This document shows positions 5,568 to 23,871 of a DNA stretch of 64,000 nucleotides, piece by piece. Position 1 is the first letter of the stretch. Each line of letters opens with the position of its first letter. Where the stretch lies: the NCBI GenBank assembly GCA_048941285.1, contig JBHLNS010000006.1:1-64000 (forward strand). Reading direction: 5' to 3'. Origin of the DNA: Promethearchaeota archaeon (GTDB lineage: Archaea; Asgardarchaeota; Lokiarchaeia; Sigyniarchaeales; SOKP01). The notes under the pieces were generated by a model. It was given only the letters and a program-made list of their open reading frames with translations, made no database searches and was not told the DNA's origin. Both the position numbers and the translations under genes were made by a program.

Positions 5568-5568
5568 A

Positions 5569-8699: not shown

Positions 8700-8781
8700 A
8701 GCTTATTAATTGTAATATTAATTAACTTTTTTTTTGATTTTTAATATCCTTATTTAACTCTTAAGAATTAAATGTGAAACT

Positions 8782-9570
8782 ATGAAATTTATTGTATGCA
8801 TAAAACAAGTTCCTGATACCACTGAAGTTAAAATTGACCCTGAAACTAATACATTGATTAGAGAAGGTGTTCCTAGCATCCTCAATCCCTTCGATCAGTT
8901 TGTACTTGAGGAAGCTATCAAAATCAGACAGGAAGGTGATGAGATTTTAGTAATTTCTATGGGTCCACCACAAGCAAAAAAGGCATTACTAAAGTGCCTT
9001 GCCTTAGGGGCAGATAAAGCTATCTTACTAAGTGATAAAATTTTTGCCGGGGCAGATACATGGGCAACATCTTATACTCTTACTCAATGTATCAAAAAGA
9101 TTGGTGATTTTAACATTATTTTTTGTGGTTTACAAGCTATTGACGGAGATACTGCTCAAGTAGGACCTGAAATTGCAGCTCAATTAGGGATTCCTCAGAT
9201 AACTTATGTTGAAAGTGTTGAAAAACTGGAAGGAAAAAAACTAACAGCAAAAGTACAAACAGATGATGGATATAAAATAGTAGAAGTTAGACTTCCAGTA
9301 CTAATAACTGGAATGACTCCATCTTCATTTGAACCCACAAATCCTCCCATGATGAATATAATGAAAGCGAATAAAAAACCATTTTTAACTTGGGATGCTG
9401 ATGAACTGGGAGGTAATAAAGAGGATTATGGCTTAAATGGGTCATTAACTGAAGTTATTAAAGTATATTCCCCACCAGCAAGACAACAGGGAGTTGTTAT
9501 TCAAGAGGAGACCTCTGAAGCTTCGGTTAAAAAATTAATTGAATTATTATCTAAGGATAAGGTGATTTAA
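8782..9570 (+). CDS. etfB: Electron transfer flavoprotein beta subunit (EtfB/FixA)
   Basis: VCIKQVPDT, NPFD, SMGPPQA, AGADTWATS, AIDGDTAQVGP. Confidence 0.95.
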   Translation: MKFIVCIKQVPDTTEVKIDPETNTLIREGVPSILNPFDQFVLEEAIKIRQEGDEILVISMGPPQAKKALLKCLALGADKAILLSDKIFAGADTWATSYTLTQCIKKIGDFNIIFCGLQAIDGDTAQVGPEIAAQLGIPQITYVESVEKLEGKKLTAKVQTDDGYKIVEVRLPVLITGMTPSSFEPTNPPMMNIMKANKKPFLTWDADELGGNKEDYGLNGSLTEVIKVYSPPARQQGVVIQEETSEASVKKLIELLSKDKVI

Positions 9571-9571
9571 T

Positions 9572-10765
9572 CTGATAAATGTAGATCAAGAAAAATGTAC
9601 TGGATGCGGTCTTTGTGAGAAAGCTTGCCCATTTGGGGCAATAACCCTAATAAATAAAATAGCAGTAATAGGAGATGAATGCACCCTTTGTGGAGCATGT
9701 GTAGATCAATGTAATGTAGGAGCAATAACTATTCAACGGAAAAAACTTGAAGATATTGATTTATCACAGTATCAAGATGTATGGATTATTGCTGAAATAA
9801 AAGATAATAAAATAAGAAATGTTTCTTTTGAATTGTTAGGTAAAGCACAAGAACTTGCGAATGAATTAAAACAAAAAGTTTGTGTTTTATTATTAGGAAA
9901 TAATGTGAAAAGATTTACACAGGAATTTTCAAACCGAGGGGCTAATAGAATATATATTGCCGAACATGAAGCTCTAAAAGATTACTATACTGAAACATAT
10001 TCTTCTGTAGTTACAGGTATAATCTCAAAATACAAGCCGAATATTGTTTTATATCCTGCAACCATTAATGGAAGAGATTTGGCACCAAGAGTAGCTGCAA
10101 CCCTTAAATTAGGACTTACTGCAGATTGTACAGGGTTATCTATACGAGACGGTCTATTATTACAAACTAGACCTGCATTTGGTGGAAATATTATGGCTGA
10201 TATAATTTGTCCAGCAACTCGACCCCAAATGGCGACAGTTAGACCTAATGTTATGGAGATTGCACAGATGCAAGATAATACAAATGCAGAAATCATTGAA
10301 GTTCCTGTAAAAGTAGATCTTCAAAGTCTAAAAGTTAAAACAAAAGAAATTTTAAATGGAACTACTATGGAATGTGGTATTCCAGTCTGTGAGGCTGATA
10401 CTATCGTATCTGGCGGAAGAGGTGTTGGAAATAAGGATAATTTTAAATTGATTGAGGATTTAGCAAATGTGTTAAATGCTGCTGTGGGAGCAAGTAGAGC
10501 TGCTGTAGATTTAGGTTGGATTCCAAAATCACAACAAGTAGGGCAGAGTGGAAACACAGTTTCTCCCAAGATTTATATAGCATGCGGTATATCGGGCACA
10601 ATTCAACACCTAGTTGGAATGAAAAGTAGCGATATAATAATCGCAATTAATAAAGATCCTGAAGCTCCCATTTTCCAATTTGCAAATTATGGTATTGTTG
10701 GCGATCTTTGCGAAATTTTGCCTTTATTAACTAAAGCTTTCGAAAAAAAGCTAAGTGAAAATTAA
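9572..10765 (+). CDS. etfA: Electron transfer flavoprotein alpha subunit with N-terminal 2[4Fe-4S] ferredoxin domain; probable CTG start
   Basis: The track ORF starts at 9833, but the same frame extends 87 codons upstream (INVDQEKCTGCGLCEKACPFG...CTLCGACVDQC) to CTG at 9572, with in-frame TGA at 9563. Core motifs TADCT, RPAFGGN, SGGRG, QVGQSG, GISGTIQH. Confidence 0.9.
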   Translation: MINVDQEKCTGCGLCEKACPFGAITLINKIAVIGDECTLCGACVDQCNVGAITIQRKKLEDIDLSQYQDVWIIAEIKDNKIRNVSFELLGKAQELANELKQKVCVLLLGNNVKRFTQEFSNRGANRIYIAEHEALKDYYTETYSSVVTGIISKYKPNIVLYPATINGRDLAPRVAATLKLGLTADCTGLSIRDGLLLQTRPAFGGNIMADIICPATRPQMATVRPNVMEIAQMQDNTNAEIIEVPVKVDLQSLKVKTKEILNGTTMECGIPVCEADTIVSGGRGVGNKDNFKLIEDLANVLNAAVGASRAAVDLGWIPKSQQVGQSGNTVSPKIYIACGISGTIQHLVGMKSSDIIIAINKDPEAPIFQFANYGIVGDLCEILPLLTKAFEKKLSEN

Positions 10766-13293
10766 AAAAGATCGTCATCAAGATCTTCATTCCCTTCTGG
10801 GAATCTTCCAAATTCTTGCATGAATTGCTGTAAAAGCTCACTCTCTCTTTTTGTATACATGGGATCTTCATCATAATCAAAAAAACAAGCATTTGGATTT
10901 GAATTTAATTGTTCTTCCATAGTTAAACGCATATTCTGAGTACCTTGAATTAAGATTATTTCTTGATTCTCATTTAAGATTTGAATTACACCCTCAGTTT
11001 CAGGGATGCTTTGAACATTTTCCGTGTTTAAATCTAACCATTTTTGAGGTGGTAATACAACAGAGGAGATTTCAAACCTTTGATCACATCTTAAACATCG
11101 ATTCGCTTCCTCAATGGCTAATTTTGCATCAAACCCCAATTCAATTTCACTAAAACTATTTTGACGCTGTTCCAATGATAATAAAGGCATTTTTATTCGT
11201 GGTTTATCATAAAAATCTTCATCGCGTCCAAAATTAGCGGACGTAATATCTGGCTCAATAAGTACATCTTCAATCTCGCCCTTTCCTCCCAAATATTTAT
11301 CAATTGAAGAAGCTGCCCTTCGACCCATTTCGATTGCATCAACAACGGAGCTAGGACTATTTATAACTTCACCACCTGCAAATATTCCTTCTATATTTGT
11401 CTCTAATGAACCTTCTTTAACTTGAATTAATCCTGATGAGGAAACCTTAATTTTACTTTCACTTCCTAGTAAGGATAGATCAGGAATTTGCCCTATAGCT
11501 AATATTACCATTTCAGTTTCAACTGATTTTGTATTATTACTATCAAAGATTGGATTGAACGCATTACGATCATCATATACAGAATCACAATGAACTAACT
11601 CAACTTCAGATATTTCACCATTCTTATCAATAATCGCTTTTGGCCCCCAGGAACAATCAAGTATAATTCCCTCGTCTATAGCTTTTTGAATTTCCCATTC
11701 ATGAGCAGGCATTTCTTCTCTACATTCGAGACATGTTAATTGTATATCTTTAGCACCAAGTCGTTTAGCAGTTAAAGCTACATCAATTGCTACATTTCCT
11801 CCACCAATCACAATAATATTATCTGATATTTTCACATTTTCACCATTATTAACTTTTTTAAGAAATTCAAGACCCCATAGGATATTAGGGAGATTTGTTC
11901 CCTCAAGATTAAGTTTTTTAGAATTTTGAGCGCCAATAGCCAAAAAAGTTGCATTGAATCCTTGATTTTTCAAATCTTCAAGAGATAAATGTTCCCCTAC
12001 AACTTTTTCAGTTTGAACATCAATTCCTATGGTCATAATATGCTCAAGATCTTTCTGAAGAACTGATCGTGGTAATCTATATTCAGGAATTCCTTGCTTT
12101 AACATACCTCCTAAATAAGAATTAGCTTCAAATATTGTAACTGAATGACCTAATCTCTTTAAATAATATGCTGCTGTCAAACCAGAGGGGCCTGAACCTA
12201 CAACCGCCACTCTTTTCCCTGTTGAAGTTTTTATCTTTAGATTTGGCTTCCACATTTCATTATCATAATCCATTGCAAAACGTTTTAAAGCACAAATGGC
12301 AATAGGTTCATTAAGTTGAGTCCTTCGACATTCAAGTTCACAATCATGAAAGCAAATTCTTCCAAGAACCGAAGGAAGAGGAGTTTTCTCCCTGATAACT
12401 GCTGCTGCTTCAGCATATTTTTCCTCTGATATTAATCGAATATAACGTGGTACATCCATTCCTAATGGGCAAACTTTTTTACATGGTACCAGTAATTTTT
12501 CACGTTCAGCCCATAAGATGTCTTTATCTGTAAGCGCACCTGTTGGACAAACTTCAATACAAGCACCGCAGAATTTACACCCAGATTCCTTGAGAGAAGG
12601 TGCAAGGCTTCCAACAATAGTTTCTTCATTAGAAAATACAAATCCTAAAGCTTCAATTCCTCGAACATCTCGACATACTCTCACACACCTCGTACACCCT
12701 ATACATAGCTCATAATTTCGAATAAAAAGTGGTTCGTCTTCAATAATCACACGATCTTGAGGTTTATAACGAGGAGTATCTTCGCGAATACCAATATATT
12801 CCGCAACTTTTTGTAATTCACATCTTCCCAAGATTGGACAGCAACGCTCTTCAACTGGAACATTAGGCGAACATGGTTCGCGACTGCATCCCTCACGTTG
12901 AGCACACATTAAGCATGCATGAGGATGTTTTGATAGTATGTTCATCAACTTTTCACGCCGGAAGATTTGAATTTCTGGTGTATCGATTGAAATTACCATA
13001 CCATCTTCCACAATAGTACTACAGGATGTTACCAATCCTTCTTTTCCTTCTACTTTTACTACACAAAGTTGACATCCCTGATGTGCTTGAGAATTAGTAT
13101 TTTTAAATTTAGAATTCCCTTGGAAAATTTCTTCAGTTGGTTCTAAGCCGACTAGAGGTGGTAAATCAGGGTGTGCACAGATGCTAGGAATATAAATACC
13201 CGCATTTTGAGATGCTTCTAGAATAGAACTTCCTTTCTTCGCTTCAATTTTAGTTCCATTAATAGTCATTGATATAGTTTCCATGTTAAACAC
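10762..13293 (-). CDS. bzdV: BzdV-like multidomain Fe-S/flavin NAD(P)H:ferredoxin oxidoreductase
   Basis: N-terminal [2Fe-2S] (CAHP...CQLC...SC), HPHACLMC cluster, CIGCTRCVRVC and CKFCGACIEVCP, GltD-like region (PCKKVCP, GRICFHDC, GSGPSG, GGGNVAID), extra ~90-aa C-terminal domain. Co-oriented with the bzd operon. Confidence 0.75.
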   Translation of the reverse strand: MFNMETISMTINGTKIEAKKGSSILEASQNAGIYIPSICAHPDLPPLVGLEPTEEIFQGNSKFKNTNSQAHQGCQLCVVKVEGKEGLVTSCSTIVEDGMVISIDTPEIQIFRREKLMNILSKHPHACLMCAQREGCSREPCSPNVPVEERCCPILGRCELQKVAEYIGIREDTPRYKPQDRVIIEDEPLFIRNYELCIGCTRCVRVCRDVRGIEALGFVFSNEETIVGSLAPSLKESGCKFCGACIEVCPTGALTDKDILWAEREKLLVPCKKVCPLGMDVPRYIRLISEEKYAEAAAVIREKTPLPSVLGRICFHDCELECRRTQLNEPIAICALKRFAMDYDNEMWKPNLKIKTSTGKRVAVVGSGPSGLTAAYYLKRLGHSVTIFEANSYLGGMLKQGIPEYRLPRSVLQKDLEHIMTIGIDVQTEKVVGEHLSLEDLKNQGFNATFLAIGAQNSKKLNLEGTNLPNILWGLEFLKKVNNGENVKISDNIIVIGGGNVAIDVALTAKRLGAKDIQLTCLECREEMPAHEWEIQKAIDEGIILDCSWGPKAIIDKNGEISEVELVHCDSVYDDRNAFNPIFDSNNTKSVETEMVILAIGQIPDLSLLGSESKIKVSSSGLIQVKEGSLETNIEGIFAGGEVINSPSSVVDAIEMGRRAASSIDKYLGGKGEIEDVLIEPDITSANFGRDEDFYDKPRIKMPLLSLEQRQNSFSEIELGFDAKLAIEEANRCLRCDQRFEISSVVLPPQKWLDLNTENVQSIPETEGVIQILNENQEIILIQGTQNMRLTMEEQLNSNPNACFFDYDEDPMYTKRESELLQQFMQEFGRFPEGNEDLDDDLF

Positions 13294-13390
13294 TTTCTAA
13301 ATAAAATTAAACATAAAATTAATTACTTATTAATTCGAATATTGGGTCTTATATTTTCAATCTCAAAGTTTTTGTCTACCTGAAATTTTA

Positions 13391-14173
13391 TTATTCGAAT
13401 TTAACCTTAAATTCTTTTATGTTATCTGGTGGCCATGCTCGGGGTGTTTTATGGTTTTTTATATACCTATGATCACATAGAGGAGCTCCATTTGAGAGAG
13501 TTTGAGTTCGAGAGAAACCAAAACCAAATATATTTGCCTCAGAAAAATCGGATAAACAGATTAGAGGGACATATTTTTCAGCATTATACTTTTTAAAAAA
13601 TTTTTGAATCCCGCATTCATAAACATTAAAACCCCATTCGAAAGTTTCGCTATCTCCTTCTATATAATCCGCTACCCAATTCTCCGGATATTCTCTTTCA
13701 TGTGATGTTTCTGTTATAGCTTTCATATAATCCATATACTCTTTTTCAAAAGGATATTGAGACGGATCCTTCCCTGTATCTTCCATCATTTTTTTTCTAA
13801 ATTTGTTATTAATATCACTAAGATTATAGAAAAATTCCCCAATATCCCATAATGTAAACCCTTCTTTTTCTAGAATACGAATAATTGCTAGAACAGAAGC
13901 GCCTCCAATAAGGTAATTGGTAAAGAAATTTTTGTTGCCTCCAATGTACGGTATTTCAGGAATTAGATCTTCATATTCTTGTTTCATCAGATTAAAAAGT
14001 TCATTAACTTTTTCATCACTAAGCTTTTTAGTGAAAATTTGTTGTAAAATAGGTAATATTGAGTCAAAATCTTTCAGTAATTTCGCTTTTTTTTTAATAT
14101 AATACTCTTTTATAATTTTTACACTCATAATTAAATTTAACACCAAATTAATTTTAAAATGGATTAAGAGCAA
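13391..14173 (-). CDS. L-2-amino-thiazoline-4-carboxylate hydrolase family protein
   Basis: ECG..KFF...CLSDF...GFSRTQTL..GAPLCDHRY three-Cys signature. Start probably ATG at about 14128. Confidence 0.75.
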   Translation of the reverse strand: MLLIHFKINLVLNLIMSVKIIKEYYIKKKAKLLKDFDSILPILQQIFTKKLSDEKVNELFNLMKQEYEDLIPEIPYIGGNKNFFTNYLIGGASVLAIIRILEKEGFTLWDIGEFFYNLSDINNKFRKKMMEDTGKDPSQYPFEKEYMDYMKAITETSHEREYPENWVADYIEGDSETFEWGFNVYECGIQKFFKKYNAEKYVPLICLSDFSEANIFGFGFSRTQTLSNGAPLCDHRYIKNHKTPRAWPPDNIKEFKVKFE

Positions 14174-14256
14174 ATAAAATTAGAATTTCTTTTACTTTTA
14201 AAGATTATGCATAATCAATAAATAAAGTAATCTAGATTTTTTTATCTCAAAAGTCC

Positions 14257-14796
14257 TCAAGACAATTTAGCATTTAATTCCTTCCTCGTTAATTTACTCA
14301 CTTGTTCTATAGCAAAAAGCACAAAATTGCAGCACTTATTTTCCCAGGCTCTATTCTTGACATAATCTCTAATATGATATTGTAAGTCATAACCACAAAG
14401 ATCTTGACAACTTAATGATCCGAATTTTTCCTCGAATTTTTTAGCAAATCGGATTGCTTTTCCGTATACTATTGGTACATCCAAGTCTTTTGTTTTATCT
14501 TGACCTCCCATTATAATACCAATCGAAGCTATAGCACCAGATATCGCACCACAAGGTTCTTTCCAACCATTCTCAGCCTTAAATGAAGCAAATCCACTAA
14601 ATGGGATAGCTCAATTATTAAAATGAATCTTTTTTAAACTTGGAATATCCAAGGCATCTAAAATATTAGTTAAAGTAACAGCTGCGCAGCTATGACCAAT
14701 ATTTTTCCCTAAAGGGGGTAGAATTAGTTTTAAATCGTCTAATTTATTTTTAAAACGTGTACCAATATTATTATGAGAATCAATCTCAGAATTCAT
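14257..14796 (-). pseudogene. C_GCAxxG_C_C family putative redox protein interrupted by one in-frame TGA
   Basis: Track ORFs 14611-14796 and 14257-14511 are in the same frame. Read-through gives HSCAA...HFNN*AIPFSGF...EPCGAISG...SLSCQDL...KCC. Confidence 0.75.
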
Positions 14797-14853
14797 AATA
14801 ATCCTACAATAAAAGAAATTATAAAATTACTTCAAATAAAATATAATCATATC

Positions 14854-15141
14854 TTACCAAGAGTGAGATATCGCACCGGGTTCACAAGCTTTTATACAAG
14901 GTAATTCTTTTGTTGCACCACCTTTACAAGGAGCACAAGAATATTTAATTTTCTTACGATGTTCTTCTGAAACAGTTGCTATAATCTCGTCTCCCAAAGG
15001 ATCTAATTCATTTTCTGCCATTTCGAGAACACCTTCAGGACAGACTTCTACGCATTTTCCACATGAATTACACAAATCGGTATCTATTGTTATAAAAAAT
15101 TCTCCTGAACCATCTTTATATCCATAATTTGCTTTCGTCAT
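14854..15141 (-). CDS. bzdM: BzdM-type 2[4Fe-4S] ferredoxin
   Basis: ANYGYKDGSGEFFITIDTDLCNSCGKCVEVCP...KYSCAPCK...PCIKAC...ISHSW; directly downstream of bzdQ. Confidence 0.85.
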   Translation of the reverse strand: MTKANYGYKDGSGEFFITIDTDLCNSCGKCVEVCPEGVLEMAENELDPLGDEIIATVSEEHRKKIKYSCAPCKGGATKELPCIKACEPGAISHSW

Positions 15142-15177
15142 TTTTTTCCTCTTCTCTCTAATTGATTTAAAATAATA

Positions 15178-16065
15178 TTAAGCTGCTTTACGTTCTTTTT
15201 CGACAAGAGCTTTAGCAAATAAAGCAGCACCAATTGCTCCAGCAATTTGTGGATCAATATCTGGTTCAGGGGCTTTTAGTTTTAGCTCATCTTCAATTCT
15301 CTTTACAACTCCAATATTTTTAGCAATTCCCCCTGTGATCGCAAACTTTTCTTCAATCCCTAACCGTAATAATAGAGTCACCACACGATGTGCCATAGCT
15401 GAGCAATATGCTGCTAAAACTTTTTCTTTTGGCCATCCTTTTCTCAATAATCCAACTGCTTCTGATTTTGCAAATACTACACAAGTACTACTAACTGGTT
15501 CGGGTTCTTGGTCAACTTCTAAAGACATTTTTCCAACGTCATTAATATGTACTTGAAGTAAATCTGCAAATACTTCCATACCTCTTCCCGTTCCTGCTGC
15601 ACATTTATCATTCATGAGAAATGCTGTGACCTTCCCACGATTATCACATCGTATAGCTTTACAATCTTGACCCCCCATATCTAATACGGTTCTTATCTCA
15701 GGGCCATATATAAAGTTTGCGCCTCGCGCATGACATGCGATTTCGGTTATTGCTCTTTTGGCAAATGGAACATTAACACGGCCGTATCCGGTTCCAACTA
15801 CATATTGAATCTTATCTAAAGTCAAACCAGTACCCTCAAGCGCCCAATCCATAGCATTTTTAGCGCTATCTGGACTGTCTGATCCAGTTCGCATACTCGA
15901 ATAGCAGTAAATTTCTCCATCCACCATTATAACAGCCTGAGTACTAACTGATCCAACATCTACTCCTGCTGAAATAATTTCACCTTCTTCCCAATTAATG
16001 TCAGGGTTAGTATAACGAGATTCGGTCCATCTCCAATATTCTGTTCCTGATTCTGTATTTGACAT
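15178..16065 (-). CDS. bzdQ: Benzoyl-CoA reductase, bzd-type, subunit Q (ASKHA ATPase)
   Basis: N-terminal EYWRWTE extension, GVDVGSVS, TGYGR, EIACHARG, DMGGQDCK, MNDKCAAGTGR, STCVVFAKSE. Confidence 0.92.
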   Translation of the reverse strand: MSNTESGTEYWRWTESRYTNPDINWEEGEIISAGVDVGSVSTQAVIMVDGEIYCYSSMRTGSDSPDSAKNAMDWALEGTGLTLDKIQYVVGTGYGRVNVPFAKRAITEIACHARGANFIYGPEIRTVLDMGGQDCKAIRCDNRGKVTAFLMNDKCAAGTGRGMEVFADLLQVHINDVGKMSLEVDQEPEPVSSTCVVFAKSEAVGLLRKGWPKEKVLAAYCSAMAHRVVTLLLRLGIEEKFAITGGIAKNIGVVKRIEDELKLKAPEPDIDPQIAGAIGAALFAKALVEKERKAA

Positions 16066-16069
16066 ATTT

Positions 16070-16855
16070 TTAACCTCCTATTTTATCTTGTGCTACAAGA
16101 GCCGCTCCCAGTGCGCTAACATACTCTGGGGAGACACCATCTTTTGGTACTAAGAGTTCAAAACCTAAGTTCTTATTCATTGCATCTACAAAACCAATAT
16201 TATTAGCAACTCCACCTATCAATGCAACTTCTTTTTCAATACCTATTTGACGTACCATACTTGTATTTCTATCTGCAATTGCGTCATGTACTGCTCGGAT
16301 TATATCTTCCTTAGCTGTCTTTTGATGAATCAATGATACAACTTCAGATTCAGCAAAAATTGTACACTGTGCATTCATAGGAATTTGTTTTGTTGATCTT
16401 AGGGACATCTCTCCCATCGTTTCAATGTCTACTTCTAATGCTCTTGACATGGCTTCTATAAATGCACCAGCTCCAGCAGCACATTTCTCATTAATTCCAA
16501 AATCCTTAACTTTTCCATCTTCGCCAAGTTTTACCACTAATCCTTCTTCTGCCCCAATATCAATAATAGTTCGAGCTGTGGGGAAGAGAAAAAATGCTCC
16601 GCGGCCATCGCAAGTTACGGTTGTAATATTATCATCCGCAAAAGAAATTGCTTCCATTCCTGCTCCAGTCACAGTAATGTGTTTAATATCTTCACGTTTA
16701 ACTCCTGCTTTTTCAAGAGCTTTATTTAATGCCTGCTTTGCTGATTCTTCCTGGTCAAAACCACTTAATACCGAAGCGGTTGATAAAACACTTTCCTCGT
16801 TCAAAAGAACTACTTTCGTGTTTTTACTACCACAATCAATTCCAGCTGTTATCAT
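16070..16855 (-). CDS. bzdP: Benzoyl-CoA reductase, bzd-type, subunit P (ASKHA ATPase)
   Basis: ITAGIDCGS, IDIGAEEG, NEKCAAGAGAF, MNAQCTIFAESE; paired with bzdQ. Confidence 0.9.
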   Translation of the reverse strand: MITAGIDCGSKNTKVVLLNEESVLSTASVLSGFDQEESAKQALNKALEKAGVKREDIKHITVTGAGMEAISFADDNITTVTCDGRGAFFLFPTARTIIDIGAEEGLVVKLGEDGKVKDFGINEKCAAGAGAFIEAMSRALEVDIETMGEMSLRSTKQIPMNAQCTIFAESEVVSLIHQKTAKEDIIRAVHDAIADRNTSMVRQIGIEKEVALIGGVANNIGFVDAMNKNLGFELLVPKDGVSPEYVSALGAALVAQDKIGG

Positions 16856-17346
16856 ATAAAACCACTTTCTTTATTTTCATTTAAATCTTTATTATTATAG
16901 ATTCCATCATTTATTCTAATCAAATCTAATTTGTTTATTACAAAAAATACAATTAAATCAAAAATCATTAAAAATGGAATTGGAAAAACGATTGGAAATA
17001 AATTATCTCCTTGTGAATTTAGTATAAACAAGGCAGGTATAGATAGTGTTAAAGGAATTAACTCACTAATGATACCAATCAAAATAAAACGCTTTTTATT
17101 AAATTTGCCAATGATTAATAGAATAACATCAACCATAAAAATAAGTCTAAAAAAACAAAACGCTAAGAAATATTGAAATGCACTGAAAAATCTTATTGAA
17201 TACCATGCTGGACTAAGGGGTACTTCCCATATCATTGAAATGATAGAATTTGGTCCTGGTCCAAGATCAATATGGATACCAAAAGGAACGAAGAAAACTA
17301 TTATAATTGTTAAAATACCAATTATCATTGCCAAATATCTTTTCAT
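16852..17346 (-). CDS. Hypothetical 4-TM membrane protein inside the bzd operon
   Basis: Four hydrophobic segments; its stop overlaps the bzdP start (ATGA, 16852-16855). Confidence 0.7.
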   Translation of the reverse strand: MKRYLAMIIGILTIIIVFFVPFGIHIDLGPGPNSIISMIWEVPLSPAWYSIRFFSAFQYFLAFCFFRLIFMVDVILLIIGKFNKKRFILIGIISELIPLTLSIPALFILNSQGDNLFPIVFPIPFLMIFDLIVFFVINKLDLIRINDGIYNNKDLNENKESGFI

Positions 17347-17375
17347 AAAACTCTTTTTAGCTTTTTTTGTTTAAT

Positions 17376-18692
17376 TTATTGTAAATTCACTTTTTCTATT
17401 CCTAAAGATTCCATAAAAGCATCTACACGTTTCATTGTTCTTTCAAGATCGAATTCTCTCTCATCACCCATATTACCTTCAAATGGCATTGTTGGAATTC
17501 CCGCTTTTTGTATAGCCAAACGATTCTCCGCAATTCCAAGGCTTAAACCTTCGCACCCTCTATTAAAATGTAGAAAAACTCCATCTAGTTTCCATTCCTT
17601 TGCGATCCTGATCATCATTTCCGATTTAAGACTTGGATGGTAAAAGTGTTGCCATTCTGGTTTGCTTAAATTCCATTCAGCAAGTGCTCGTAATGCTTCA
17701 TCTCTGTTGGTAATTTCAATATCAGGAATAGATCTTGGCCCCCATGTTCCATCTTCTTTATCTTCCCATAAACCAATAAGACCAAATGTGTAAAGGCTTC
17801 CAACAGAAACGCAACCGTATTGTTCTAAATAACGAAATATTCTTAAAAATGCCCAAGGAGGTTGAGTATCTGTCATAATTCGACACTTCTCATTCCCTAC
17901 AGCAGCTATACCTCTTGCTACACGATCTTTTACCTCTGGATATAGCTCTTTTTCATAAAAATCTGCAGTCCATTGAGCTGATTTTCTTAAAGTTCCTAGA
18001 ACATATAACGAATACATTGATTTCTCGTCTAATGGAGCTGGGATTGCTTTATTGAGTTCACAAATAGCTGCCCAATAATGACATGATCGAAATTCATTTT
18101 TGACTGCTCTTATTAATAATTCATTATCATAGTCTCTTCCTGTTACTTTTTCTAACCACTTTATACCATCATGCATCTGTCCCACAATATAGTTGATTTT
18201 ATGTTCTGTCAGTTCTTCATATGGACCCACTGATACATCGATATCAAACATAGGAATTCCTCCTTCAAGATCACTCGCTACTTGATACCATTTAGCATGT
18301 GAACAACAAATATGATCCTGCCAAATAAAATCAGGTTTAGGGAATTCTTCTGAATATTGTGGCCATGCATACTTATTAATTAGTATCGAACCCCAATAGT
18401 TGCGCATATACGAACATAGATCTCGAGCAAATCCCCTCGCTTCAGTTGCTTCATGACACTCTAAAGCAAACTTATCATTGAATGCTACTGTTGCGCCATA
18501 AGGTTCTCCAGTTAAAGAATAAACATCATCTCCTAAGCCTGCAGGGATCGCATCAAAAGACCATGCTCCTCCTACCCACCGAAGACCTCCTTTTTCATGC
18601 GCTTCAGCAAAATCTTTATAATAATTCTCTCTAAGAATTTTAGCCTTATTCCAACATTTTAATGGTTCTGTTGGATATTTAGTTCCCATCAT
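17376..18692 (-). CDS. bzdO: Benzoyl-CoA reductase, bzd-type, subunit O
   Basis: [61 protein letters not shown]. Confidence 0.93.
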
Positions 18693-18709
18693 GATAATTC
18701 CTCCTTTTT

Positions 18710-19834
18710 TTAAAAAAGATCCTCCTCTCTTATAATTTCGAGAAACGCTTCTACTCGCGTTTTAAATTGACCAATTGGCACTGTGACATCAAATTCAAGA
18801 AATAGAGTTTGAATATTAAGATCATTTTCTAATGTCTCTTTTATTACAACGGTATCAAGTTCATGTGGGTCGCAGAATTTCATTTGCATAATAATTGCTC
18901 CTTGTACATCATATTCTTTAGCTAATTGGATTATATGATCCAGTCTTTTACGTTGAGGCCAATCTTTACTTGGACATGGTATGCGCTTAACATATCTTTC
19001 TGCTAATGAGGTAAGGGTATCTCCATTTGCATTAACAAGTGTATTAAAATATCGGGTACCAGTGCAATGATCATCAATAACAAATCTTGCACCTAAATTT
19101 TCAACCATTGCTATAAATTCAGTATCATCATCTTCAGACCCTAATATCATTAATCGTTCACCAGGATTATCTAATTTCCTTGAGGGAAGTTTCTGCAAAA
19201 GTTCTTCTAATGCTTTATTATGTTCTCGTTTATCGACCATTTGTGAAGATACCACCATGTACATTGCCTCTAGACCAGTTAATGGTGGATTTGGGTTCTT
19301 TCTCAATTCATATACTTTTTGTAACAGTTGTCTATTCTTATTCATTATTTCAATTCCCCGCTTGATATCCTCATCTGTAATTTGTTTTCCCGTCCAATCC
19401 TCAATTGCTTTTTTGAAAACTTTTAATTCCTCTGTTAAATAAGGAACAGCATGAGGACTCTGAACATTCATAGGATGTGGTAGATAATATTTAAAGTCCA
19501 CTGGGATGTGGAGATCCCAACTGGTAAAAGCCTGACGAATGTGGAGACAACTCTGAGCAATGGTAATTCCATCAAGATAGTCAAATCTCCCCTTTAATCC
19601 TTGTGCTAAGCAATCACGACAGAATGGACAAAACATAGCAAAAATATGTGGCTCTGAGACATCTTGTGGTTCATGACTCCCTAATATTCTTACTGGTAGA
19701 ATATCTGCCGCATAAAGAATTTCTTCCGGTACGTAGGTACAGAAAGTTCCTATTACTTTTCCGCCAGTTCGTTTTTTCCATTCTTTCGCATAATTATGAC
19801 GATTTTCATACCAATCTTTAAATTGTTCAAACAA
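18710..19834 (-). CDS. bzdN: Benzoyl-CoA reductase, bzd-type, subunit N
   Basis: [58 protein letters not shown]-terminal EDLF. Confidence 0.93.
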
Positions 19835-19901
19835 TCTTTATATCCCCTTGATTCATTCTAATTTGGAAAATAAAAAATAAATTAAAAATTTTATTAAACC
19901 T

Positions 19902-20948
19902 CTATTTTTGACATAATATAATTATTCTAATTCCTTCTCCTCTACGCATGACATCGAAGGCTTCATTAATTTCTGAAAGTGGGAATTTATGAGTAATTAA
20001 TGGTTTAAGCTGAAGAGAACCATTCTTAACCAAGTCAATAATATGTGGATAATCAACAGGACGACAACCAAGGCTTCCCATTATTTCCATTTCTCGAAAC
20101 ATTACACGACCAATATCAAATCCATCCCAACGTTGGGGAGAATATCCAACAGCCACTAAACGCCCACCAGTTCGTAAACTATTAAATGCCTGTTTCATTG
20201 TGGTTGGGTGCCCAATTGCCTCAAATGCTATATCCGCTCCGCCTCCCGTTATTTTTCGTATGGCTCCAACAATTTCCCTTTCATCCATATCTTTTGCTAA
20301 AACAGTTTCTATAGCACCAATTTGTTTAGCAATTTCAAGTTTCTTTGGGACAATATCAACAGCAATAGGTAATCCTCCTGCTGCTTTTATATTCTGGACC
20401 ACATTTAAACCAATACCACCACAACCTATAACTACTGCCCAATCACCAGGTCTTACTTGGCCTCGGTTTTTAACAGCATGATACGGTGTTGATATAGCAT
20501 CAGAAATTATACAACTTTCCTCCAATGACATGTCAGTAGGAAGATGGACTACATCCTTTACTGGGACCTTAATTTGCTCAGCAAAACCACCATCAATGTG
20601 GTTTCCGAGCATTATTTGATTAAGGCAAATATTCTCTCTACCGGTTCTGCAATTAACACAATAACCACAGGAAAGTACAGCAGGAATAATCACGTGATCT
20701 CCTTCTTTGAAATTTTTAACATCTTCACTAACCGCTTTAATTCGTCCTGAAATTTCATGACCTAAAATAAGAGGTGGTTGTTTAACTGTAGGTACTCCAT
20801 GTTCTAGATAGCCAAAATCAGTATGACATACTCCACAGGCTTCTATCTCTATTATAGCTTGGCCTAACTCACCGGAAATATTTGGATCTGGATAATTATT
20901 ATCTACTTTTAAAGGGTCCTTAATTTTTTCAAAAACTGCTGCTTTCAT
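19902..20948 (-). CDS. had: 6-hydroxycyclohex-1-ene-1-carbonyl-CoA dehydrogenase (Zn-MDR)
   Basis: CGVCHTD, GHEISG, PAVLSCGYCVNC...C, DAISTPY, GCGGIG; operon context. Confidence 0.85.
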   Translation of the reverse strand: MKAAVFEKIKDPLKVDNNYPDPNISGELGQAIIEIEACGVCHTDFGYLEHGVPTVKQPPLILGHEISGRIKAVSEDVKNFKEGDHVIIPAVLSCGYCVNCRTGRENICLNQIMLGNHIDGGFAEQIKVPVKDVVHLPTDMSLEESCIISDAISTPYHAVKNRGQVRPGDWAVVIGCGGIGLNVVQNIKAAGGLPIAVDIVPKKLEIAKQIGAIETVLAKDMDEREIVGAIRKITGGGADIAFEAIGHPTTMKQAFNSLRTGGRLVAVGYSPQRWDGFDIGRVMFREMEIMGSLGCRPVDYPHIIDLVKNGSLQLKPLITHKFPLSEINEAFDVMRRGEGIRIIILCQK

Positions 20949-21016
20949 TTCAATTTCCTACAATTTGTTTTATTATAATTCTAATTTAAACCTAATTCTT
21001 ATTAAATTTAAGAAAA

Positions 21017-21784
21017 TTAACGATTCTGCCAATTTGGTGGTCGCTTTTCTAAGAATGCCTGTAATCCTTCATTTGCATCATGTGTTGACATTAATTCTTT
21101 AAGATAAAATTCTTCGATTTCATCTAATTTAGACTCAAAATCGATTCTTAAAGCTTTCTTAAAGGATTTTTTAGTATAGTGCAAAACAACAGTACTTAAA
21201 TTATTAAAGGATTCGATAAACTTGTTAAATTCTTGATCATATGATTCAAGAGGGAAAACATGATTGGAGATTCCAAGTCTAAAAGCTTCTTCAGCATCGA
21301 TTATTTCTCCTAACATGATAAGTTCAAAAGCTTTTTTATTTCCTATAATTTGTGGAAAAGCTAAAATGGCGATCGGAGGAAAAACACCTACTTTTATTTC
21401 CGGTTGACCAAATTTTGCTTTATCTGAGGTAAGAACGATATCGCAAAAAATAACAATTTCACAACCACCACCAAGTGCGGCTCCTTTAACACTTGCTATT
21501 GTTGGGCATTTTAAATTATTAAGTTTTCTAAAAATGTCATGAAATTCTTTAATCATCTTAGAAGCTTTATGCCCCATGTGATCCCTAACATCAACTCCAG
21601 CAGAAAAAGTCTTTCCATTATGATCAAAAATTACTAACTTTAATGATTCATCTTCAAGAAAACCTTCCAGAGCTTCATTAATTTGCTCCATCATCTGGAT
21701 TGTTAAAATATTTAATGGACCATTGTTGAATATTATTTTTCCAATTTTATTGACTTTTTCAACAATAATTAAATCATTCGTCAA
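21017..21784 (-). CDS. dch: Cyclohexa-1,5-dienecarbonyl-CoA hydratase (crotonase family)
   Basis: PLNIL, FSAGVDV..H, LGGGCE, GQPEIKVGVFPP, YLKELMSTHDANEG. Confidence 0.85.
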   Translation of the reverse strand: MTNDLIIVEKVNKIGKIIFNNGPLNILTIQMMEQINEALEGFLEDESLKLVIFDHNGKTFSAGVDVRDHMGHKASKMIKEFHDIFRKLNNLKCPTIASVKGAALGGGCEIVIFCDIVLTSDKAKFGQPEIKVGVFPPIAILAFPQIIGNKKAFELIMLGEIIDAEEAFRLGISNHVFPLESYDQEFNKFIESFNNLSTVVLHYTKKSFKKALRIDFESKLDEIEEFYLKELMSTHDANEGLQAFLEKRPPNWQNR

Positions 21785-21851
21785 AAATTTTCACTCAAAA
21801 TAGTTAATTTTCTTTAAAGTCTCTTTTATTAATAAAAAAATTTGTTAATTT

Positions 21852-22820
21852 TTATTTTAATTTAGATCCACATTTACCGCAAAACTCGAAATCGGAAGGC
21901 AAACTTTTTGCTTGACATGAAGGGCATGTGATCGAAGGAGGTCCCCATAAGAATTCTGGATGTGAACTTTCTCGTACACCCCTATAATTTGGAGGACGTT
22001 TTTCCACAAATGCTGACATTCCTTCAAGTGGCTCCCATGAAGCATAATGGATTGATAACCAATCTTTAGCATGTCCAATTGTTTGGTGCCAAACAAAATC
22101 TTTCCAAAAATTTACCTGTTGTTTTGTATATCTCATGCATTCTGGAAACTTATCAATGAGTTTCTGGCAATATTTATCTACTTCTTCATCAATTTCTGCA
22201 TATGGAACTACAGAATTTACTAAACCCCATTCTAATGCTTTTTCTGCTGAGATAGGTTCACATAAAAATAAAATCTCTCTTGCTCTGCGGTCGCCAACTA
22301 TTATAGGTAACCATTGAGTAGCACCTCCACATGCTACAGACCCTACTCTTGTTCCTACTTGCCTAATGGTTGCATGATCTGCGCAAATTGCTAAATCACA
22401 AGCCATTTGCCATTCATTACCTCCGCCTGCCACAATTCCATTAATTCTTGCAAGAGTAGGTTTGCCAATATTTCGAAAGACATCATGTGCTTCTTGAAAA
22501 ATAGACATCCATTTCCAATATTCAGCAGGTTGTATAGTAAATCTTTCTCTATACTCTTTTACATCTCCACCAGTACAAAAAGCTTTATCGCCAGCTCCGG
22601 TTAAGATAATAACTGCAACTTTATTATCCCACGCAGCATCATGAAAAGCTTCAATCATTTCCATTAATGTAAGGGTTGAATAAGCATTATATACTTCTGG
22701 ACGATTAATCGTGACAGTAGCTTTCCAATCTTTCTTTTCATAAATTATTTCTTTAAAATCAAATTCCTTTGGATCTTTAGGCTTAAAATTTGGTTCTTTT
22801 GTATAAGTCACTATAATCAC
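21852..22820 (-). CDS. oah: 6-oxocyclohex-1-ene-1-carbonyl-CoA hydrolase (ring-opening) with C-terminal zinc ribbon
   Basis: NAYST, AFCTGGD, GGGNEW..ACD, GS...GGATQWLP, FPEC..YTK; ends CPSC...FCGKCG. First gene of the bzd operon. Confidence 0.8.
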   Translation of the reverse strand: MIIVTYTKEPNFKPKDPKEFDFKEIIYEKKDWKATVTINRPEVYNAYSTLTLMEMIEAFHDAAWDNKVAVIILTGAGDKAFCTGGDVKEYRERFTIQPAEYWKWMSIFQEAHDVFRNIGKPTLARINGIVAGGGNEWQMACDLAICADHATIRQVGTRVGSVACGGATQWLPIIVGDRRAREILFLCEPISAEKALEWGLVNSVVPYAEIDEEVDKYCQKLIDKFPECMRYTKQQVNFWKDFVWHQTIGHAKDWLSIHYASWEPLEGMSAFVEKRPPNYRGVRESSHPEFLWGPPSITCPSCQAKSLPSDFEFCGKCGSKLK

Positions 22821-22910
22821 TTCAAAACTTGCTTTTTTTGATTTCTTTTATTTTTATTATTATTCTTAGATAATTTTCCAAAATAATATAAAATTTGTTA
22901 ATAGGAAACG

Positions 22911-22936
22911 TTTAGTGGGAATAAAATTCCACTAAA
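22911..22936. promoter_or_regulatory. Inverted repeat (candidate operator) in the divergent promoter region of the bzd operon
   Basis: TTTAGTGGGAAT-AAA-ATTCCACTAAA near-perfect palindrome between oah (-) and 23028 (+). Confidence 0.55.
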
Positions 22937-23027
22937 AGCACATATCAGATGATATAAGAAAAAGAGTAAGATTTAAACTGAACATTATCATAATATCTAA
23001 TGTAGACTCGGAAAAGAAAACAAAAAT

Positions 23028-23786: not shown

Positions 23787-23871
23787 TTTTTTTTCTTTTC
23801 TTTATTCAAATTTTGACGATGCGTAACATCAATGATTTCTTTTTTAAACAATACATTATTATTTCAAACTC

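What the first reader, a model, noticed from the sequence alone, without database searches (positions are those of the whole stretch)
10762..22820. Complete contiguous bzd-type anaerobic benzoyl-CoA ring-reduction and cleavage operon in an Asgard-like archaeon
Seen: oah-dch-had-bzdN-bzdO-X-bzdP-bzdQ-bzdM-(2 genes)-bzdV on one strand with subunit-specific motifs. Established: this set converts benzoyl-CoA to 3-hydroxypimeloyl-CoA in Azoarcus/Aromatoleum and Ferroglobus. Such genes have been noted in some Asgard MAGs, so the capacity itself is not wholly new. The intact operon with its electron-donor system plus about 25 kb of linked lower and peripheral pathway genes is unusually complete. An ATP-costly class I reductase in a presumed low-energy anaerobe is notable.
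Basis: partly seen in the sequence, partly recalled or inferred. Interest (0 to 1): 0.75.

Follow-up and report, generated by a model that had tools for sequence, protein, structure and literature searches.

The report
Benzoyl-CoA ring-reduction operon in Asgard archaeon
This is a real and intact gene cluster for the ATP-driven anaerobic breakdown of the aromatic intermediate benzoyl-CoA in an Asgard archaeon, but the same cluster is common in related genomes and was described in print in 2019-2021, so it is largely ordinary.

Summary
BzdN, BzdO and BzdQ pass NCBI's curated cut-offs. All nine cluster-binding cysteines and the three catalytic residues of the solved Aromatoleum BzdNO are conserved. 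The genome is an Asgard archaeon, and the contig matches the rest of the genome in composition.

Four points need correcting:
- The "oah" is not canonical Oah. It belongs to a separate family of about 320 aa that resembles MenB and BadI.
- Dch and Had are best hits only and score below their cut-offs.
- "X" and the "2 genes" are accessory inserts. One of the two carries a nonsense mutation.
- No benzoate-CoA ligase passes its cut-off, and the flanking genes are generic beta-oxidation genes.

The cluster is not unusual. A bzdO above cut-off occurs in 31 of 201 sampled Asgard genomes, and 17 public Asgard loci share the same gene order. Bzd-type reductase clusters in Loki-, Hermod- and Heimdallarchaeota, and the puzzle of their ATP cost, were published in 2019-2021.

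The minor new leads are the non-canonical ring hydrolase, a conserved small CxxC protein, and a conserved palindromic intergenic site.

The parts
21852..22820 (-). Oah-like ring-hydrolase candidate, a 322-aa crotonase that resembles MenB and BadI. It is not canonical Oah/BamA.
   Evidence: NCBIfam scores: BadI 207.6 (cut-off 467.6), MenB 203.6 (380), Oah 186.8 (464.45). It is the best Oah match in the whole genome but below cut-off. Canonical Oah in other bzd loci scores 555-576 bits and is only 29-38% identical. Its own family is 66-76% identical across many phyla.
21017..21784 (-). [quoted passage not shown]
   Evidence: TIGR03189 is the top family at 174.9 bits, below the 292.5 cut-off. It is 52% identical to the crotonase that sits between a canonical Oah and bzdN in a Brocadiaceae locus. 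That protein scores the same 174.8 bits.
19902..20948 (-). [quoted passage not shown]
   Evidence: TIGR03201 is the top family at 239.2 bits, below the 338.65 cut-off; the next family scores 196.8. It is 53-57% identical to Had-like genes in bacterial bzd loci, which score 255-274 bits.
18710..19834 (-). BzdN, the reductase subunit that carries the double-cubane [8Fe-9S] cluster.
   Evidence: TIGR03190 486.0 vs cut-off 453.8. PDB 8S02_B (BzdN) E 9e-142. Cys36/73/100/263/293/327, Arg53/267/290, His330 and Ser239 of the Aromatoleum protein are conserved in the printed alignment; Gln324 is Met here (residue list from PMC11971306).
17376..18692 (-). BzdO, the catalytic subunit with the [4Fe-4S]-OH2 cluster.
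   Evidence: TIGR03191 700.9 vs cut-off 448.6. PDB 8S02_A (BzdO) E 7e-200. Cys95/128/380, Trp46, Glu65 and His131 are conserved in the printed alignment.
16852..17346 (-). X164, a small hydrophobic (membrane-like) protein of unknown function. It is an accessory insert.
   Evidence: No Pfam or NCBIfam family. It is present in 7 of 33 close public loci. The bzdO-bzdP gap is 516-557 nt with it and 24-100 nt without. The Atlas gives only unnamed clusters.
16070..16855 (-). BzdP-like ATPase subunit (BcrAD/BadFG activase family).
   Evidence: TIGR00241 230.2 vs cut-off 125.4; PF01869 168.5 bits. It is 48-61% identical to the gene in the same position in 39 non-Asgard bzd loci. It does not reach the BzdQ-specific model's cut-off (142.1 vs 380.2), and no BzdP-named family appeared among its six NCBIfam matches at E <= 1e-5.
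15178..16065 (-). BzdQ ATPase subunit.
   Evidence: TIGR03192 428.7 vs cut-off 380.2.
14854..15141 (-). BzdM-like 2x[4Fe-4S] ferredoxin, the inferred electron donor.
   Evidence: Fer4 family hits. It is 51-71% identical to the gene directly after bzdQ in non-Asgard bzd loci.
14257..14796 (-). C_GCAxxG_C_C family gene broken by an in-frame TGA at 14611-14613. It is an accessory insert and probably a pseudogene.
   Evidence: Reading through the TGA raises the PF09719 score from 23.2 to 47.3 bits. The TGA aligns with Leu in 7 of 8 and Val in 1 of 8 intact same-genus homologues, never Cys. No homologue lies in any of the 91 bzd loci held at that point.
13391..14173 (-). ATC_hydrolase-like protein (PF14196), an accessory insert.
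   Evidence: PF14196 51.1 bits. It is present in only 2 of 33 close loci, L023 and L039. The fdx-bzdV spacer is 47-172 nt in 21 of 27 loci and 839-3389 nt in 6.
10762..13293 (-). BzdV-like 843-aa oxidoreductase. It combines an N-terminal 2Fe-2S/4Fe-4S module like HoxU/NuoG with a GltD-like FAD/NAD(P)H module. It is the inferred ferredoxin-regenerating enzyme.
   Evidence: Pfam Fer2_4, Fer4_Nqo3, Fer4_20 and Pyr_redox_2. NF009410 470.4 bits, below its 516 cut-off. It is 42-52% identical to the gene after the ferredoxin in 31 of 47 non-Asgard bzd loci. BzdV is called a 'putative NADPH:ferredoxin oxidoreductase' in PMC5658619.
23028..23309 (+). h93, a conserved small CxxC protein transcribed divergently from the operon. 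Function unknown.
   Evidence: No family. Homologues occur in 31 loci, including 8 non-Asgard ones, where the gene lies just after bzdV or, in two Thermoplasmata loci, near it. W28, R38, E41, Y46, C66 and C69 are invariant. The AF2 model has pLDDT 65.8, and there was no PDB fold match at E<=0.001.
22821..23027 (.). Conserved divergent intergenic (promoter) region with the palindrome TTTAGTGG-N10-CCACTAAA at 22911-22936.
   Evidence: Inverted repeat I16. The exact pattern lies upstream of the oah-like gene in 13 loci. The 15-sequence alignment shows long invariant blocks, including ATTTTATTCCCAC.
6968..10765 (+). Acyl-CoA dehydrogenase plus EtfB/EtfA, convergent with bzdV. The role is inferred only (beta-oxidation or an alicyclic acyl-CoA dehydrogenase).
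   Evidence: Pfam ACAD and ETF. Best NCBIfam hits are AcrC 220 bits, cyclohexanecarboxyl-CoA dehydrogenase 211 and glutaryl-CoA dehydrogenase Acd 187, all below cut-off. It is syntenic next to bzdV, at 88-94% identity for the dehydrogenase, in L021, L029 and L039.
23346..32393 (.). Syntenic neighbours on the + strand: MaoC hydratase (23346-23786), AMP-ligase (27727-29313), thiolase (29345-30568), a lone HGD-D protein (30628-31854) and a second MaoC (31923-32393). Interspersed are a radical-SAM gene and an MBL-fold gene (+ strand) and two unassigned ORFs on the - strand.
   Evidence: No equivalog cut-off is reached; the ligase scores 187.7 vs 375.25 on the benzoate-CoA ligase model. The block is conserved in many Loki/Hermod-type loci.

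Best explanation
The region encodes the central anaerobic benzoyl-CoA pathway of an Asgard archaeon.

Proposed mechanism:
- BzdPQ forms an ATPase module with a bridging Fe-S cluster. It takes electrons from the adjacent 2x[4Fe-4S] ferredoxin and, using ATP, passes them at very low potential to BzdNO.
- In BzdNO, the [8Fe-9S] cluster of BzdN relays the electrons to the water-ligated [4Fe-4S] cluster of BzdO. This cluster reduces benzoyl-CoA to cyclohexa-1,5-diene-1-carbonyl-CoA.
- The BzdV-like Fe-S flavoprotein re-reduces the ferredoxin from NAD(P)H.
- The three upstream genes then hydrate the diene (Dch-like), oxidise the alcohol (Had-like) and open the ring hydrolytically (Oah-like crotonase resembling MenB and BadI). 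The product is a C7 dicarboxyl-CoA that enters beta-oxidation.

What is shown: the family membership of BzdN, BzdO and BzdQ, conservation of their cofactor-binding and catalytic residues, the gene order, and its conservation across genomes.

What is inferred: the activity itself, the roles of BzdV, Dch, Had and above all the Oah-like protein, the source of benzoyl-CoA, and the energy balance.
For: - BzdN, BzdO and BzdQ exceed NCBIfam equivalog cut-offs.
- PDB BzdO (8S02_A) matches at E 7e-200 and BzdN (8S02_B) at 9e-142. The 2-hydroxyisocaproyl-CoA dehydratase subunits score only 107 and 177 bits.
- All nine Fe-S cysteines and Trp46, Glu65 and His131 named in PMC11971306 are conserved in the printed alignments.
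- The core bzdN-O-P-Q-fdx-bzdV is complete in 31 of 47 non-Asgard loci.
- Dch-like and Had-like have those families as their top hits. They are 52-57% identical to genes in bacterial bzd loci.
- The Oah-like gene is linked to benzoyl-CoA-type reductases in three independent settings. It sits next to bzd in this clade. It lies about 10-15 kb from bzdO in another Asgard family. In a third family it sits directly after a Thauera-type-like bcrCBAD set plus had.
- In a sample of 201 Asgard genomes, 24 of the 31 with bzdO also have the Oah-like gene.
- No MenD above cut-off is in the genome, so a menaquinone role for the MenB-like protein is unlikely.
Against: - Oah, BadI and MenB models are all far below cut-off for the ring-hydrolase candidate.
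- Its family also occurs in 10 of 201 sampled Asgard genomes without bzdO, and in many phyla whose gene context I did not examine.
- Dch and Had are below cut-off.
- No benzoate-CoA ligase above cut-off was found in a 94%-complete genome.
- One accessory gene inside the operon carries a nonsense codon.
- A same-genus closed chromosome has a decayed cluster: bzdO is truncated at the 5' end, and no bzdN, had, dch or oah lies in the 10 kb upstream. The trait is therefore dispensable.
Confidence: 0.8

Rival explanations
1. The genes are the same, but the physiological role differs. The cluster would dispose of benzoyl-CoA (or a substituted aryl-CoA) arising from fermentation of aromatic amino acids or lignin-derived acids. 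It would not serve growth on benzoate or hydrocarbons. Alternatively it would use ring reduction as an electron sink, with the adjacent acyl-CoA dehydrogenase and ETF acting on alicyclic CoA esters.
For: No benzoate-CoA ligase is above cut-off. The conserved neighbours are an aldehyde:ferredoxin oxidoreductase closest to Pyrococcus AOR (404 bits, against 269 for BamB), a PanE-like dehydrogenase, a lone HGD-D protein and an activase. The acyl-CoA dehydrogenase next to bzdV scores 211 bits on the cyclohexanecarboxyl-CoA dehydrogenase model, below cut-off.
Against: All of this rests on context alone. None of these neighbours reaches an equivalog cut-off. The ligase-thiolase block is syntenic with the operon, and a 51%-identical ligase sits beside the 56% Oah-like gene in an Acidobacteriota bzd locus. 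This is compatible with direct activation of an aromatic acid.
Confidence: 0.3
2. The N and O subunits are 2-hydroxyacyl-CoA dehydratases or double-cubane proteins, not a benzoyl-CoA reductase.
For: They share the Pfam family HGD-D. BzdN scores 205 bits on the double-cubane reductase model and 206 on HadC.
Against: The BzdN and BzdO models score 486 and 701 bits, above their cut-offs, against 206 and 134 for HadC and HadB. Solved BzdNO is the top PDB match by more than 290 bits. The BzdO catalytic residues are conserved.
Confidence: 0.01
3. The contig is bacterial or mis-binned, so the capacity does not belong to the archaeon.
For: The bzd region has slightly higher GC (0.34-0.35 against 0.30). 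Its tetranucleotide correlation is 0.975, the 1.2th percentile of 247 genome chunks. One 7.9-kb contig with a 94-95% identical cluster is labelled Halanaerobiales (L024).
Against: The other seven 12-kb chunks of contig C64 correlate 0.988-0.994 with the genome mean, whose 5th percentile is 0.986. Bacterial bzd loci correlate -0.51 to 0.68. The same cluster and flanks lie on Asgard-labelled contigs of 250-388 kb, and bzd clusters lie on two Asgard-labelled closed chromosomes, although one of those clusters is decayed. bzdO above cut-off occurs in 10 of 25 same-genus genomes. All 29 Asgard-side rows form one branch with SH-aLRT 100.
Confidence: 0.02

Closest known systems
bzd cluster of Aromatoleum/Azoarcus sp. 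CIB (bzdNOPQ, bzdM, bzdV, bzdW/X/Y)
   Same: It has the same four reductase subunits, followed by a ferredoxin and a BzdV-like oxidoreductase. BzdO and BzdN match the solved CIB proteins at E 7e-200 and 9e-142, with all cluster ligands and catalytic residues conserved. The pathway logic is as described in PMC5658619.
   Different: The hydratase, dehydrogenase and hydrolase genes lie upstream of bzdN here, not downstream. The hydrolase is not a canonical Oah/BzdY-type protein. No BzdA-type ligase is present. There are extra accessory inserts (X164, the GCAxxG pseudogene, the ATC_hydrolase-like gene). I did not search the window for a BzdR-type regulator.
Published Asgard bzd clusters (Hermodarchaeota, Zhang et al. 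2021, PMC8163825; Lokiarchaeota CR_06, Farag et al., bioRxiv 10.1101/763623; Loki_b32 contig NJBH01000012.1)
   Same: The Loki_b32 locus (L029) has the same gene order, including X164 and the flanking MaoC, h93, ETF and acyl-CoA dehydrogenase genes. Its BzdO is 91-92% identical. Zhang et al. report Bcr with BzdV, ferredoxin, Dch and Had on one contig, and Bcr in 10 of 118 Asgard genomes.
   Different: This genome is another species of the same lineage. The only feature found in this locus alone, among those compared, is the disrupted GCAxxG gene between the ferredoxin and bzdV.
Canonical Oah/BamA (TIGR03200), BadI (TIGR03210) and MenB
   Same: All are crotonase-fold enzymes that make or break a ring C-C bond of a beta-keto acyl-CoA. 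This statement rests on established knowledge of the families and was not tested here. The candidate aligns over its full length with BadI and MenB (PDB MenB 190 bits).
   Different: It scores 187-208 bits against cut-offs of 380-468. It lacks profile positions 214-262 and 328-360 of the Oah model. It is 29-38% identical to canonical Oah proteins found in bacterial and Thermoplasmata bzd loci.

Membership tests
Class I benzoyl-CoA reductase, Bzd type | BzdN, BzdO and BzdQ score above the curated equivalog cut-offs | tested here: met
   486.0/453.8, 700.9/448.6 and 428.7/380.2 bits
Class I benzoyl-CoA reductase, Bzd type | Six Cys ligands of the [8Fe-9S] cluster in BzdN and three Cys of the [4Fe-4S] cluster in BzdO, plus Trp46, Glu65 and His131 | tested here: met
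   Residue list from PMC11971306. All are conserved in the printed alignments to 8S02_A and 8S02_B, read by eye. BzdN Gln324 is Met.
Class I benzoyl-CoA reductase, Bzd type | Two activase-type ATPase subunits (P and Q) adjacent to N and O | tested here: met
   TIGR00241 scores 230.2 and 230.8 against a cut-off of 125.4. BzdQ is above its own cut-off. BzdP reaches only the domain-level model. The gene order is conserved in the 39 of 47 non-Asgard loci that show a BzdP hit.
Class I benzoyl-CoA reductase, Bzd type | ATP-dependent reduction of benzoyl-CoA to the 1,5-dienoyl-CoA | not testable with these tools
   Needs an enzyme assay.
[quoted passage not shown] | Score above the equivalog cut-off | tested here: not met
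   174.9 vs 292.5, although it is the top family. Crotonases in bacterial bzd loci also score only 150-186 bits.
[quoted passage not shown] | Score above the equivalog cut-off | tested here: not met
   239.2 vs 338.65; it is the top family by 42 bits. Had-like genes in four other bzd loci score 225-274 bits, also below cut-off.
[quoted passage not shown] | Score above the equivalog cut-off and full-length match | tested here: not met
   186.8 vs 464.45, in two stretches. No gene in the genome passes. Canonical members in loci L045, L053, L064 and L079 score 555-576 bits.
BadI, 2-ketocyclohexanecarboxyl-CoA hydrolase (TIGR03210), and MenB | Score above the equivalog cut-off; for MenB, the presence of the menaquinone pathway | tested here: not met
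   BadI 207.6 vs 467.6; MenB 203.6 vs 380. No MenD is above cut-off in the genome; the best scores 61 vs 244.
Benzoate-CoA ligase (TIGR02262) | Score above the equivalog cut-off | tested here: not met
   The window ligase scores 187.7 and the best in the genome 251.4, against a cut-off of 375.25.
Asgard archaea | Eukaryote-like actin and ESCRT-III genes in the genome; the contig's composition matches the bin; near relatives are named Asgard | tested here: met
   Four PF00022 matches (best 440.9 bits) and two Snf7 matches above cut-off. Tetranucleotide correlation. Record titles. No 16S rRNA gene was found in the assembly. Submitters' phylum labels conflict within one GTDB genus.
Selenoprotein (for the TGA-containing GCAxxG gene) | The TGA aligns with Cys or Sec in homologues | tested here: not met
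   It aligns with Leu in 7 of 8 and Val in 1 of 8 homologues, although a tRNA-Sec gene exists on contig C52.

The most novel reading that the evidence does not exclude
The ~320-aa crotonase family resembling MenB and BadI is the real ring-opening hydrolase of the benzoyl-CoA pathway in Asgard archaea, and probably in many other strict anaerobes. It would replace canonical Oah/BamA and serve two different types of class I reductase (Bzd-type and Thauera-type-like). If so, surveys based on oah/bamA markers systematically miss these degraders. The conserved small CxxC protein h93 and the palindromic site in the shared promoter would be unrecognised parts of the same system.
Probability: 0.45. Interest if true: 0.45.

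Novelty: already known. Interest (0 to 1): 0.22.

Why it matters
The cluster supports the published view that some Asgard archaea in anoxic sediments can dearomatise benzoyl-CoA with an ATP-dependent enzyme. That bears on carbon cycling and on the energy budget of these relatives of eukaryotes. This window adds no new capacity.

Its value lies in three things:
- A clean, intact example on a 106-kb contig.
- The finding that the trait is patchy and sometimes decaying within one genus.
- The ring-cleavage step, which is carried out by an uncharacterised crotonase family and would be worth an enzyme assay.

Tried and rejected
- **Selenocysteine reading of the TGA at 14611-14613: rejected.** Reading through improves the Pfam match, and a tRNA-Sec gene exists. 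But intact homologues have Leu or Val at that position, so it is a nonsense mutation.
- **The AOR at 38867-40723 as a class II reductase (BamB): rejected.** Pyrococcus AOR scores 404 bits against 269 for BamB.
- **16S rRNA for taxonomy:** none was found in the assembly.
- **Expression:** no RNA holder was listed for 15178-22820. I laid no reads, so this says nothing about expression.
- **h93 fold:** the AF2 model has pLDDT 65.8. Foldseek against the PDB gave no match at E<=0.001.
- **X164:** no Pfam or NCBIfam family. The Atlas gave only unnamed clusters.
- **Donor lineage:** the quick tree leaves the Asgard clade in an unresolved three-way split with an Aminicenantes/'Eubacteriales' group and an Acetothermia/Fraserbacteria pair. 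Only the best 80 of 399 relatives were fetched, 70 rows were used and 11 loci were dropped for partial genes. No donor can be named.
- **Literature on the non-canonical hydrolase:** one targeted search gave a single paper that is unrelated by its title. I cannot say the point is not in print.
- **Earlier findings of this scan:** nothing to show near this place.
Full report
**What is there**

The window is the first 64 kb of a 106-kb contig (C64). It belongs to a 3.55-Mb, 101-contig genome that is 94% complete and 3.4% contaminated.

From 22820 down to 10762, twelve ORFs lie on the minus strand with gaps of -4 to 97 nt. The assignments from NCBIfam and Pfam are:
- a crotonase ('oah', 21852-22820)
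- a second crotonase ('dch', 21017-21784)
- a Zn-dependent alcohol dehydrogenase ('had', 19902-20948)
- BzdN (18710-19834)
- BzdO (17376-18692)
- a 164-aa hydrophobic ORF (16852-17346)
- a BzdP-like ATPase (16070-16855)
- BzdQ (15178-16065)
- a 95-aa 2x[4Fe-4S] ferredoxin (14854-15141)
- two further ORFs
- an 843-aa Fe-S/flavin oxidoreductase (10762-13293)

**The reductase is a true Bzd-type class I benzoyl-CoA reductase**

- BzdN scores 486.0 bits (cut-off 453.8), BzdO 700.9 (448.6) and BzdQ 428.7 (380.2). All three pass NCBI's equivalog cut-offs.
- The 2-hydroxyisocaproyl-CoA dehydratase models score only 206 and 134 bits for N and O.
- Against the PDB, the best matches are BzdO and BzdN of entry 8S02, at E 7e-200 and 9e-142. 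The dehydratase chains score 107 and 177 bits.
- The paper on that structure is PMC11971306 (passages read). It names Cys36/73/100/263/293/327 of BzdN as ligands of an [8Fe-9S] double cubane. It names Cys95/128/380 of BzdO as ligands of the catalytic [4Fe-4S]-OH2 cluster, with Trp46, Glu65 and His131 in the active site.
- Reading the printed alignments, all of these residues are conserved in the window's proteins. So are BzdN Arg53/267/290, His330 and Ser239. Only the channel residue Gln324 differs (Met).

**The organism is an Asgard archaeon and the contig belongs to it**

- The genome holds four actin-family matches (best 440.9 bits) and two Snf7 matches above cut-off.
- Among the 52 closest BzdO clusters (84-96% identity), every one that carries a name has an Asgard label: Promethearchaeota, Hermod-, Hod-, Heimdall- or Odinarchaeota.
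- Submitters' labels conflict within one GTDB genus. G016 is titled Hermodarchaeota and G006 Promethearchaeota. I therefore name only the superphylum.
- The 12-kb chunks of C64 correlate 0.978-0.994 with the genome's mean tetranucleotide profile. The median of all 247 chunks is 0.993 and the 5th percentile 0.986.
- The bzd stretch itself is a mild outlier at 0.975, with GC 0.34-0.35 against 0.30. Bacterial bzd loci correlate -0.51 to 0.68.
- The same cluster with the same flanks lies on Asgard-labelled contigs of 250-388 kb, and bzd clusters lie on two Asgard-labelled closed chromosomes, one of them decayed.

**How common it is**

- bzdO above cut-off occurs in 10 of 25 genomes of the window's GTDB genus (counting the window's own genome). 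It occurs in 0 of 16 genomes sampled from other families of the order.
- It occurs in 31 of 201 genomes drawn evenly across the phylum, in 7 of 59 genera.
- Of the 80 best public genome loci (out of 399 relatives found), 33 are 84-96% identical. Of these, 31 are Asgard-labelled, one is an 'uncultured archaeon', and one is a 7.9-kb contig labelled Halanaerobiales.
- 17 of those 33 show oah-dch-had-bzdN-bzdO-(X)-bzdP-bzdQ-fdx-bzdV.
- The core bzdN-O-P-Q-fdx-bzdV is also complete in 31 of 47 loci from bacteria and Thermoplasmatota.
- A concatenated BzdN+BzdO tree was built with the quick method on 70 rows; 11 loci with partial genes were dropped. It puts all 29 Asgard-side rows on one branch (SH-aLRT 100). 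They split into a Loki/Hermod-type group of 21 and a Heimdall/Hod-type group of 8.
- The nearest groups (Aminicenantes/'Eubacteriales', Acetothermia/Fraserbacteria) are unresolved, so no donor can be named.
- One closed same-genus chromosome (L039) has a decayed cluster. Its bzdO is truncated at the 5' end (343-aa ORF), and no bzdN, had, dch or oah lies in the 10 kb upstream.

1. *The 'oah' is not canonical Oah.* Its best families are BadI (207.6 vs 467.6), MenB (203.6 vs 380) and Oah (186.8 vs 464.45, in two stretches). No gene in the genome passes the Oah cut-off.
   - Four other bzd loci (Aminicenantes, Brocadiaceae, Planctomycetota, Thermoplasmatales) carry canonical Oah proteins. These have 376-385 aa, score 555-576 bits, and are only 29-38% identical to the window's protein.
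   - The window's protein belongs to a family of about 317-326 aa that is 66-76% identical across many phyla. NCBI names its members only 'enoyl-CoA hydratase/isomerase family protein'.
   - A ring-hydrolase role is still the best reading. In a second Asgard family the 62-64% orthologue lies about 10-15 kb from bzdO.
   - In a third Asgard family the 73% orthologue sits in a had-bcrC-bcrB-bcrA-bcrD-oah-like cluster. The reductase there resembles the Thauera type: the BcrC, B, A and D models score 308, 318, 207 and 183 bits, all below cut-off.
   - In the 201-genome sample, 24 genomes have both bzdO and the Oah-like gene, 7 have bzdO only and 10 have the Oah-like gene only (I compared the two lists by hand).
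   - No MenD above cut-off is in the genome.
2. *Dch and Had are below cut-off.* Dch scores 174.9 vs 292.5 and Had 239.2 vs 338.65. Each is nevertheless the top family, and each is 52-57% identical to genes in bacterial bzd loci that score about the same.
3. *'X' and the '2 genes' are accessory.*
   - X164 has no family. It is present in 7 of 33 close loci as a clean insert.
   - The fdx-bzdV spacer is 47-172 nt in 21 of 27 loci and 839-3389 nt in 6. It is 1560 nt here.
   - One of the two genes is ATC_hydrolase-like and also occurs in L023 and L039.
   - The other is a C_GCAxxG_C_C gene with an in-frame TGA at 14611-14613. The TGA aligns with Leu or Val in eight intact homologues, so it is a nonsense mutation and not selenocysteine.
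4. *The flanks are generic.* The flanking acyl-CoA dehydrogenases, ETFs, MaoC hydratases, thiolase and AMP-ligase reach no equivalog cut-off. No benzoate-CoA ligase passes its cut-off in the genome. The AOR at 38867-40723 is an ordinary aldehyde oxidoreductase, not BamB.

**What is already in print**

- Zhang et al. 2021 (PMC8163825; passages and supplement passages read) describe Bcr clusters with BzdV, ferredoxin, Dch and Had on one contig in Hermodarchaeota. They report Bcr in 10 of 118 Asgard genomes. Their trees include the Loki_b32 BzdN and BzdO, whose locus (L029) has the window's gene order.
- Farag et al. (bioRxiv 10.1101/763623, passages read) report Bzd-type BCR in Lokiarchaeota. 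They state that an ATP-dependent enzyme was unexpected in such organisms.
- Sewell et al. 2017 (PMC5736913, passages read) make the same point for deep-sea Chloroflexi.
- NCBI's pipeline already names these proteins.

**Verdict**

The finding is real and mostly correctly interpreted, but it is already known.

The residual leads are:
- the non-canonical ring hydrolase
- the conserved small CxxC protein h93, found in 31 loci including 8 non-Asgard ones
- a strongly conserved divergent promoter region with a palindrome

Noticed in passing
window 23028-23309 (+): h93 is a 93-aa protein with no Pfam or NCBIfam family. Its homologues accompany bzd clusters in 31 loci: 23 Asgard and 8 from Thermoplasmata, Gemmatimonadota, Acidobacteria, Ignavibacteria and Fraserbacteria. 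In the non-Asgard loci the gene lies directly after bzdV or, in two Thermoplasmata loci, near it. W28, R38, E41, Y46 and a CxxC pair (C66, C69) are invariant. It might correspond to one of the small bzdS/T/U ORFs of Azoarcus; those names are recalled and were not tested.
   Followed up: partly
window 22821-23027 (palindrome at 22911-22936): The divergent intergenic region between h93 and the oah-like gene is highly conserved in 15 aligned loci. It has invariant blocks and a palindrome (GTGG-N-ATTTTATTCCCAC core). It is a candidate operator and promoter region.
   Followed up: partly
window 30628-31854 (+) and 42229-43017 (+): A lone HGD-D family protein (HadB-like 226 bits, BcrB-like 153 bits) and a separate activase-type ATPase. 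56-67% homologues of the HGD-D gene, each with an activase-like gene beside it, also lie next to bzd clusters in Heimdall/Hod-type loci, in an Ignavibacteriaceae locus and in an Acidobacteria locus. This may be a second ATP-activated radical enzyme linked to the pathway. Function unknown.
   Followed up: no
window 38867-43017 (+): An AOR (closest to Pyrococcus AOR), a polyferredoxin, a PanE-like dehydrogenase and an activase lie in a row. The set resembles one for 2-oxo or 2-hydroxy acid and aldehyde metabolism, possibly fermentation of aromatic amino acids.
   Followed up: partly
L039 (a closed same-genus chromosome), 10001-11200: A decayed bzd cluster. bzdO is truncated at the 5' end (343-aa ORF). 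No bzdN, had, dch or oah lies in the 10 kb upstream. bzdP, bzdQ, fdx and bzdV remain.
   Followed up: partly
G099:C8, G159:C61, G133:C65, G106:C10, G112:C49, G118:C224: In another Asgard family, six bzdO matches above cut-off are reported with one in-frame stop each (five TAG, one TAA). I did not check whether the stop lies at the edge of the match or is a real interruption or recoding.
   Followed up: no
G000:C52:88257-88349: ARAGORN finds a tRNA-Sec (anticodon TCA) in the genome, so the organism probably makes selenoproteins, although the TGA in the bzd operon is not one. ARAGORN found only 13 tRNAs in all with the settings used.
   Followed up: no
L122 (G054:C14) 5208-11550: An Asgard genome of another family carries had-bcrC-bcrB-bcrA-bcrD followed by the Oah-like gene (73% identical). 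This is a Thauera-type-like four-subunit reductase whose subunits are all below equivalog cut-offs. It is a second kind of class I-like aryl-CoA reductase cluster in Asgard archaea.
   Followed up: partly
L024 (DAOVRZ010000160.1): A 7.9-kb contig labelled Halanaerobiales carries a bzd cluster 94-95% identical (BzdO) to the Asgard ones. It is probably a mis-binned Asgard contig.
   Followed up: no
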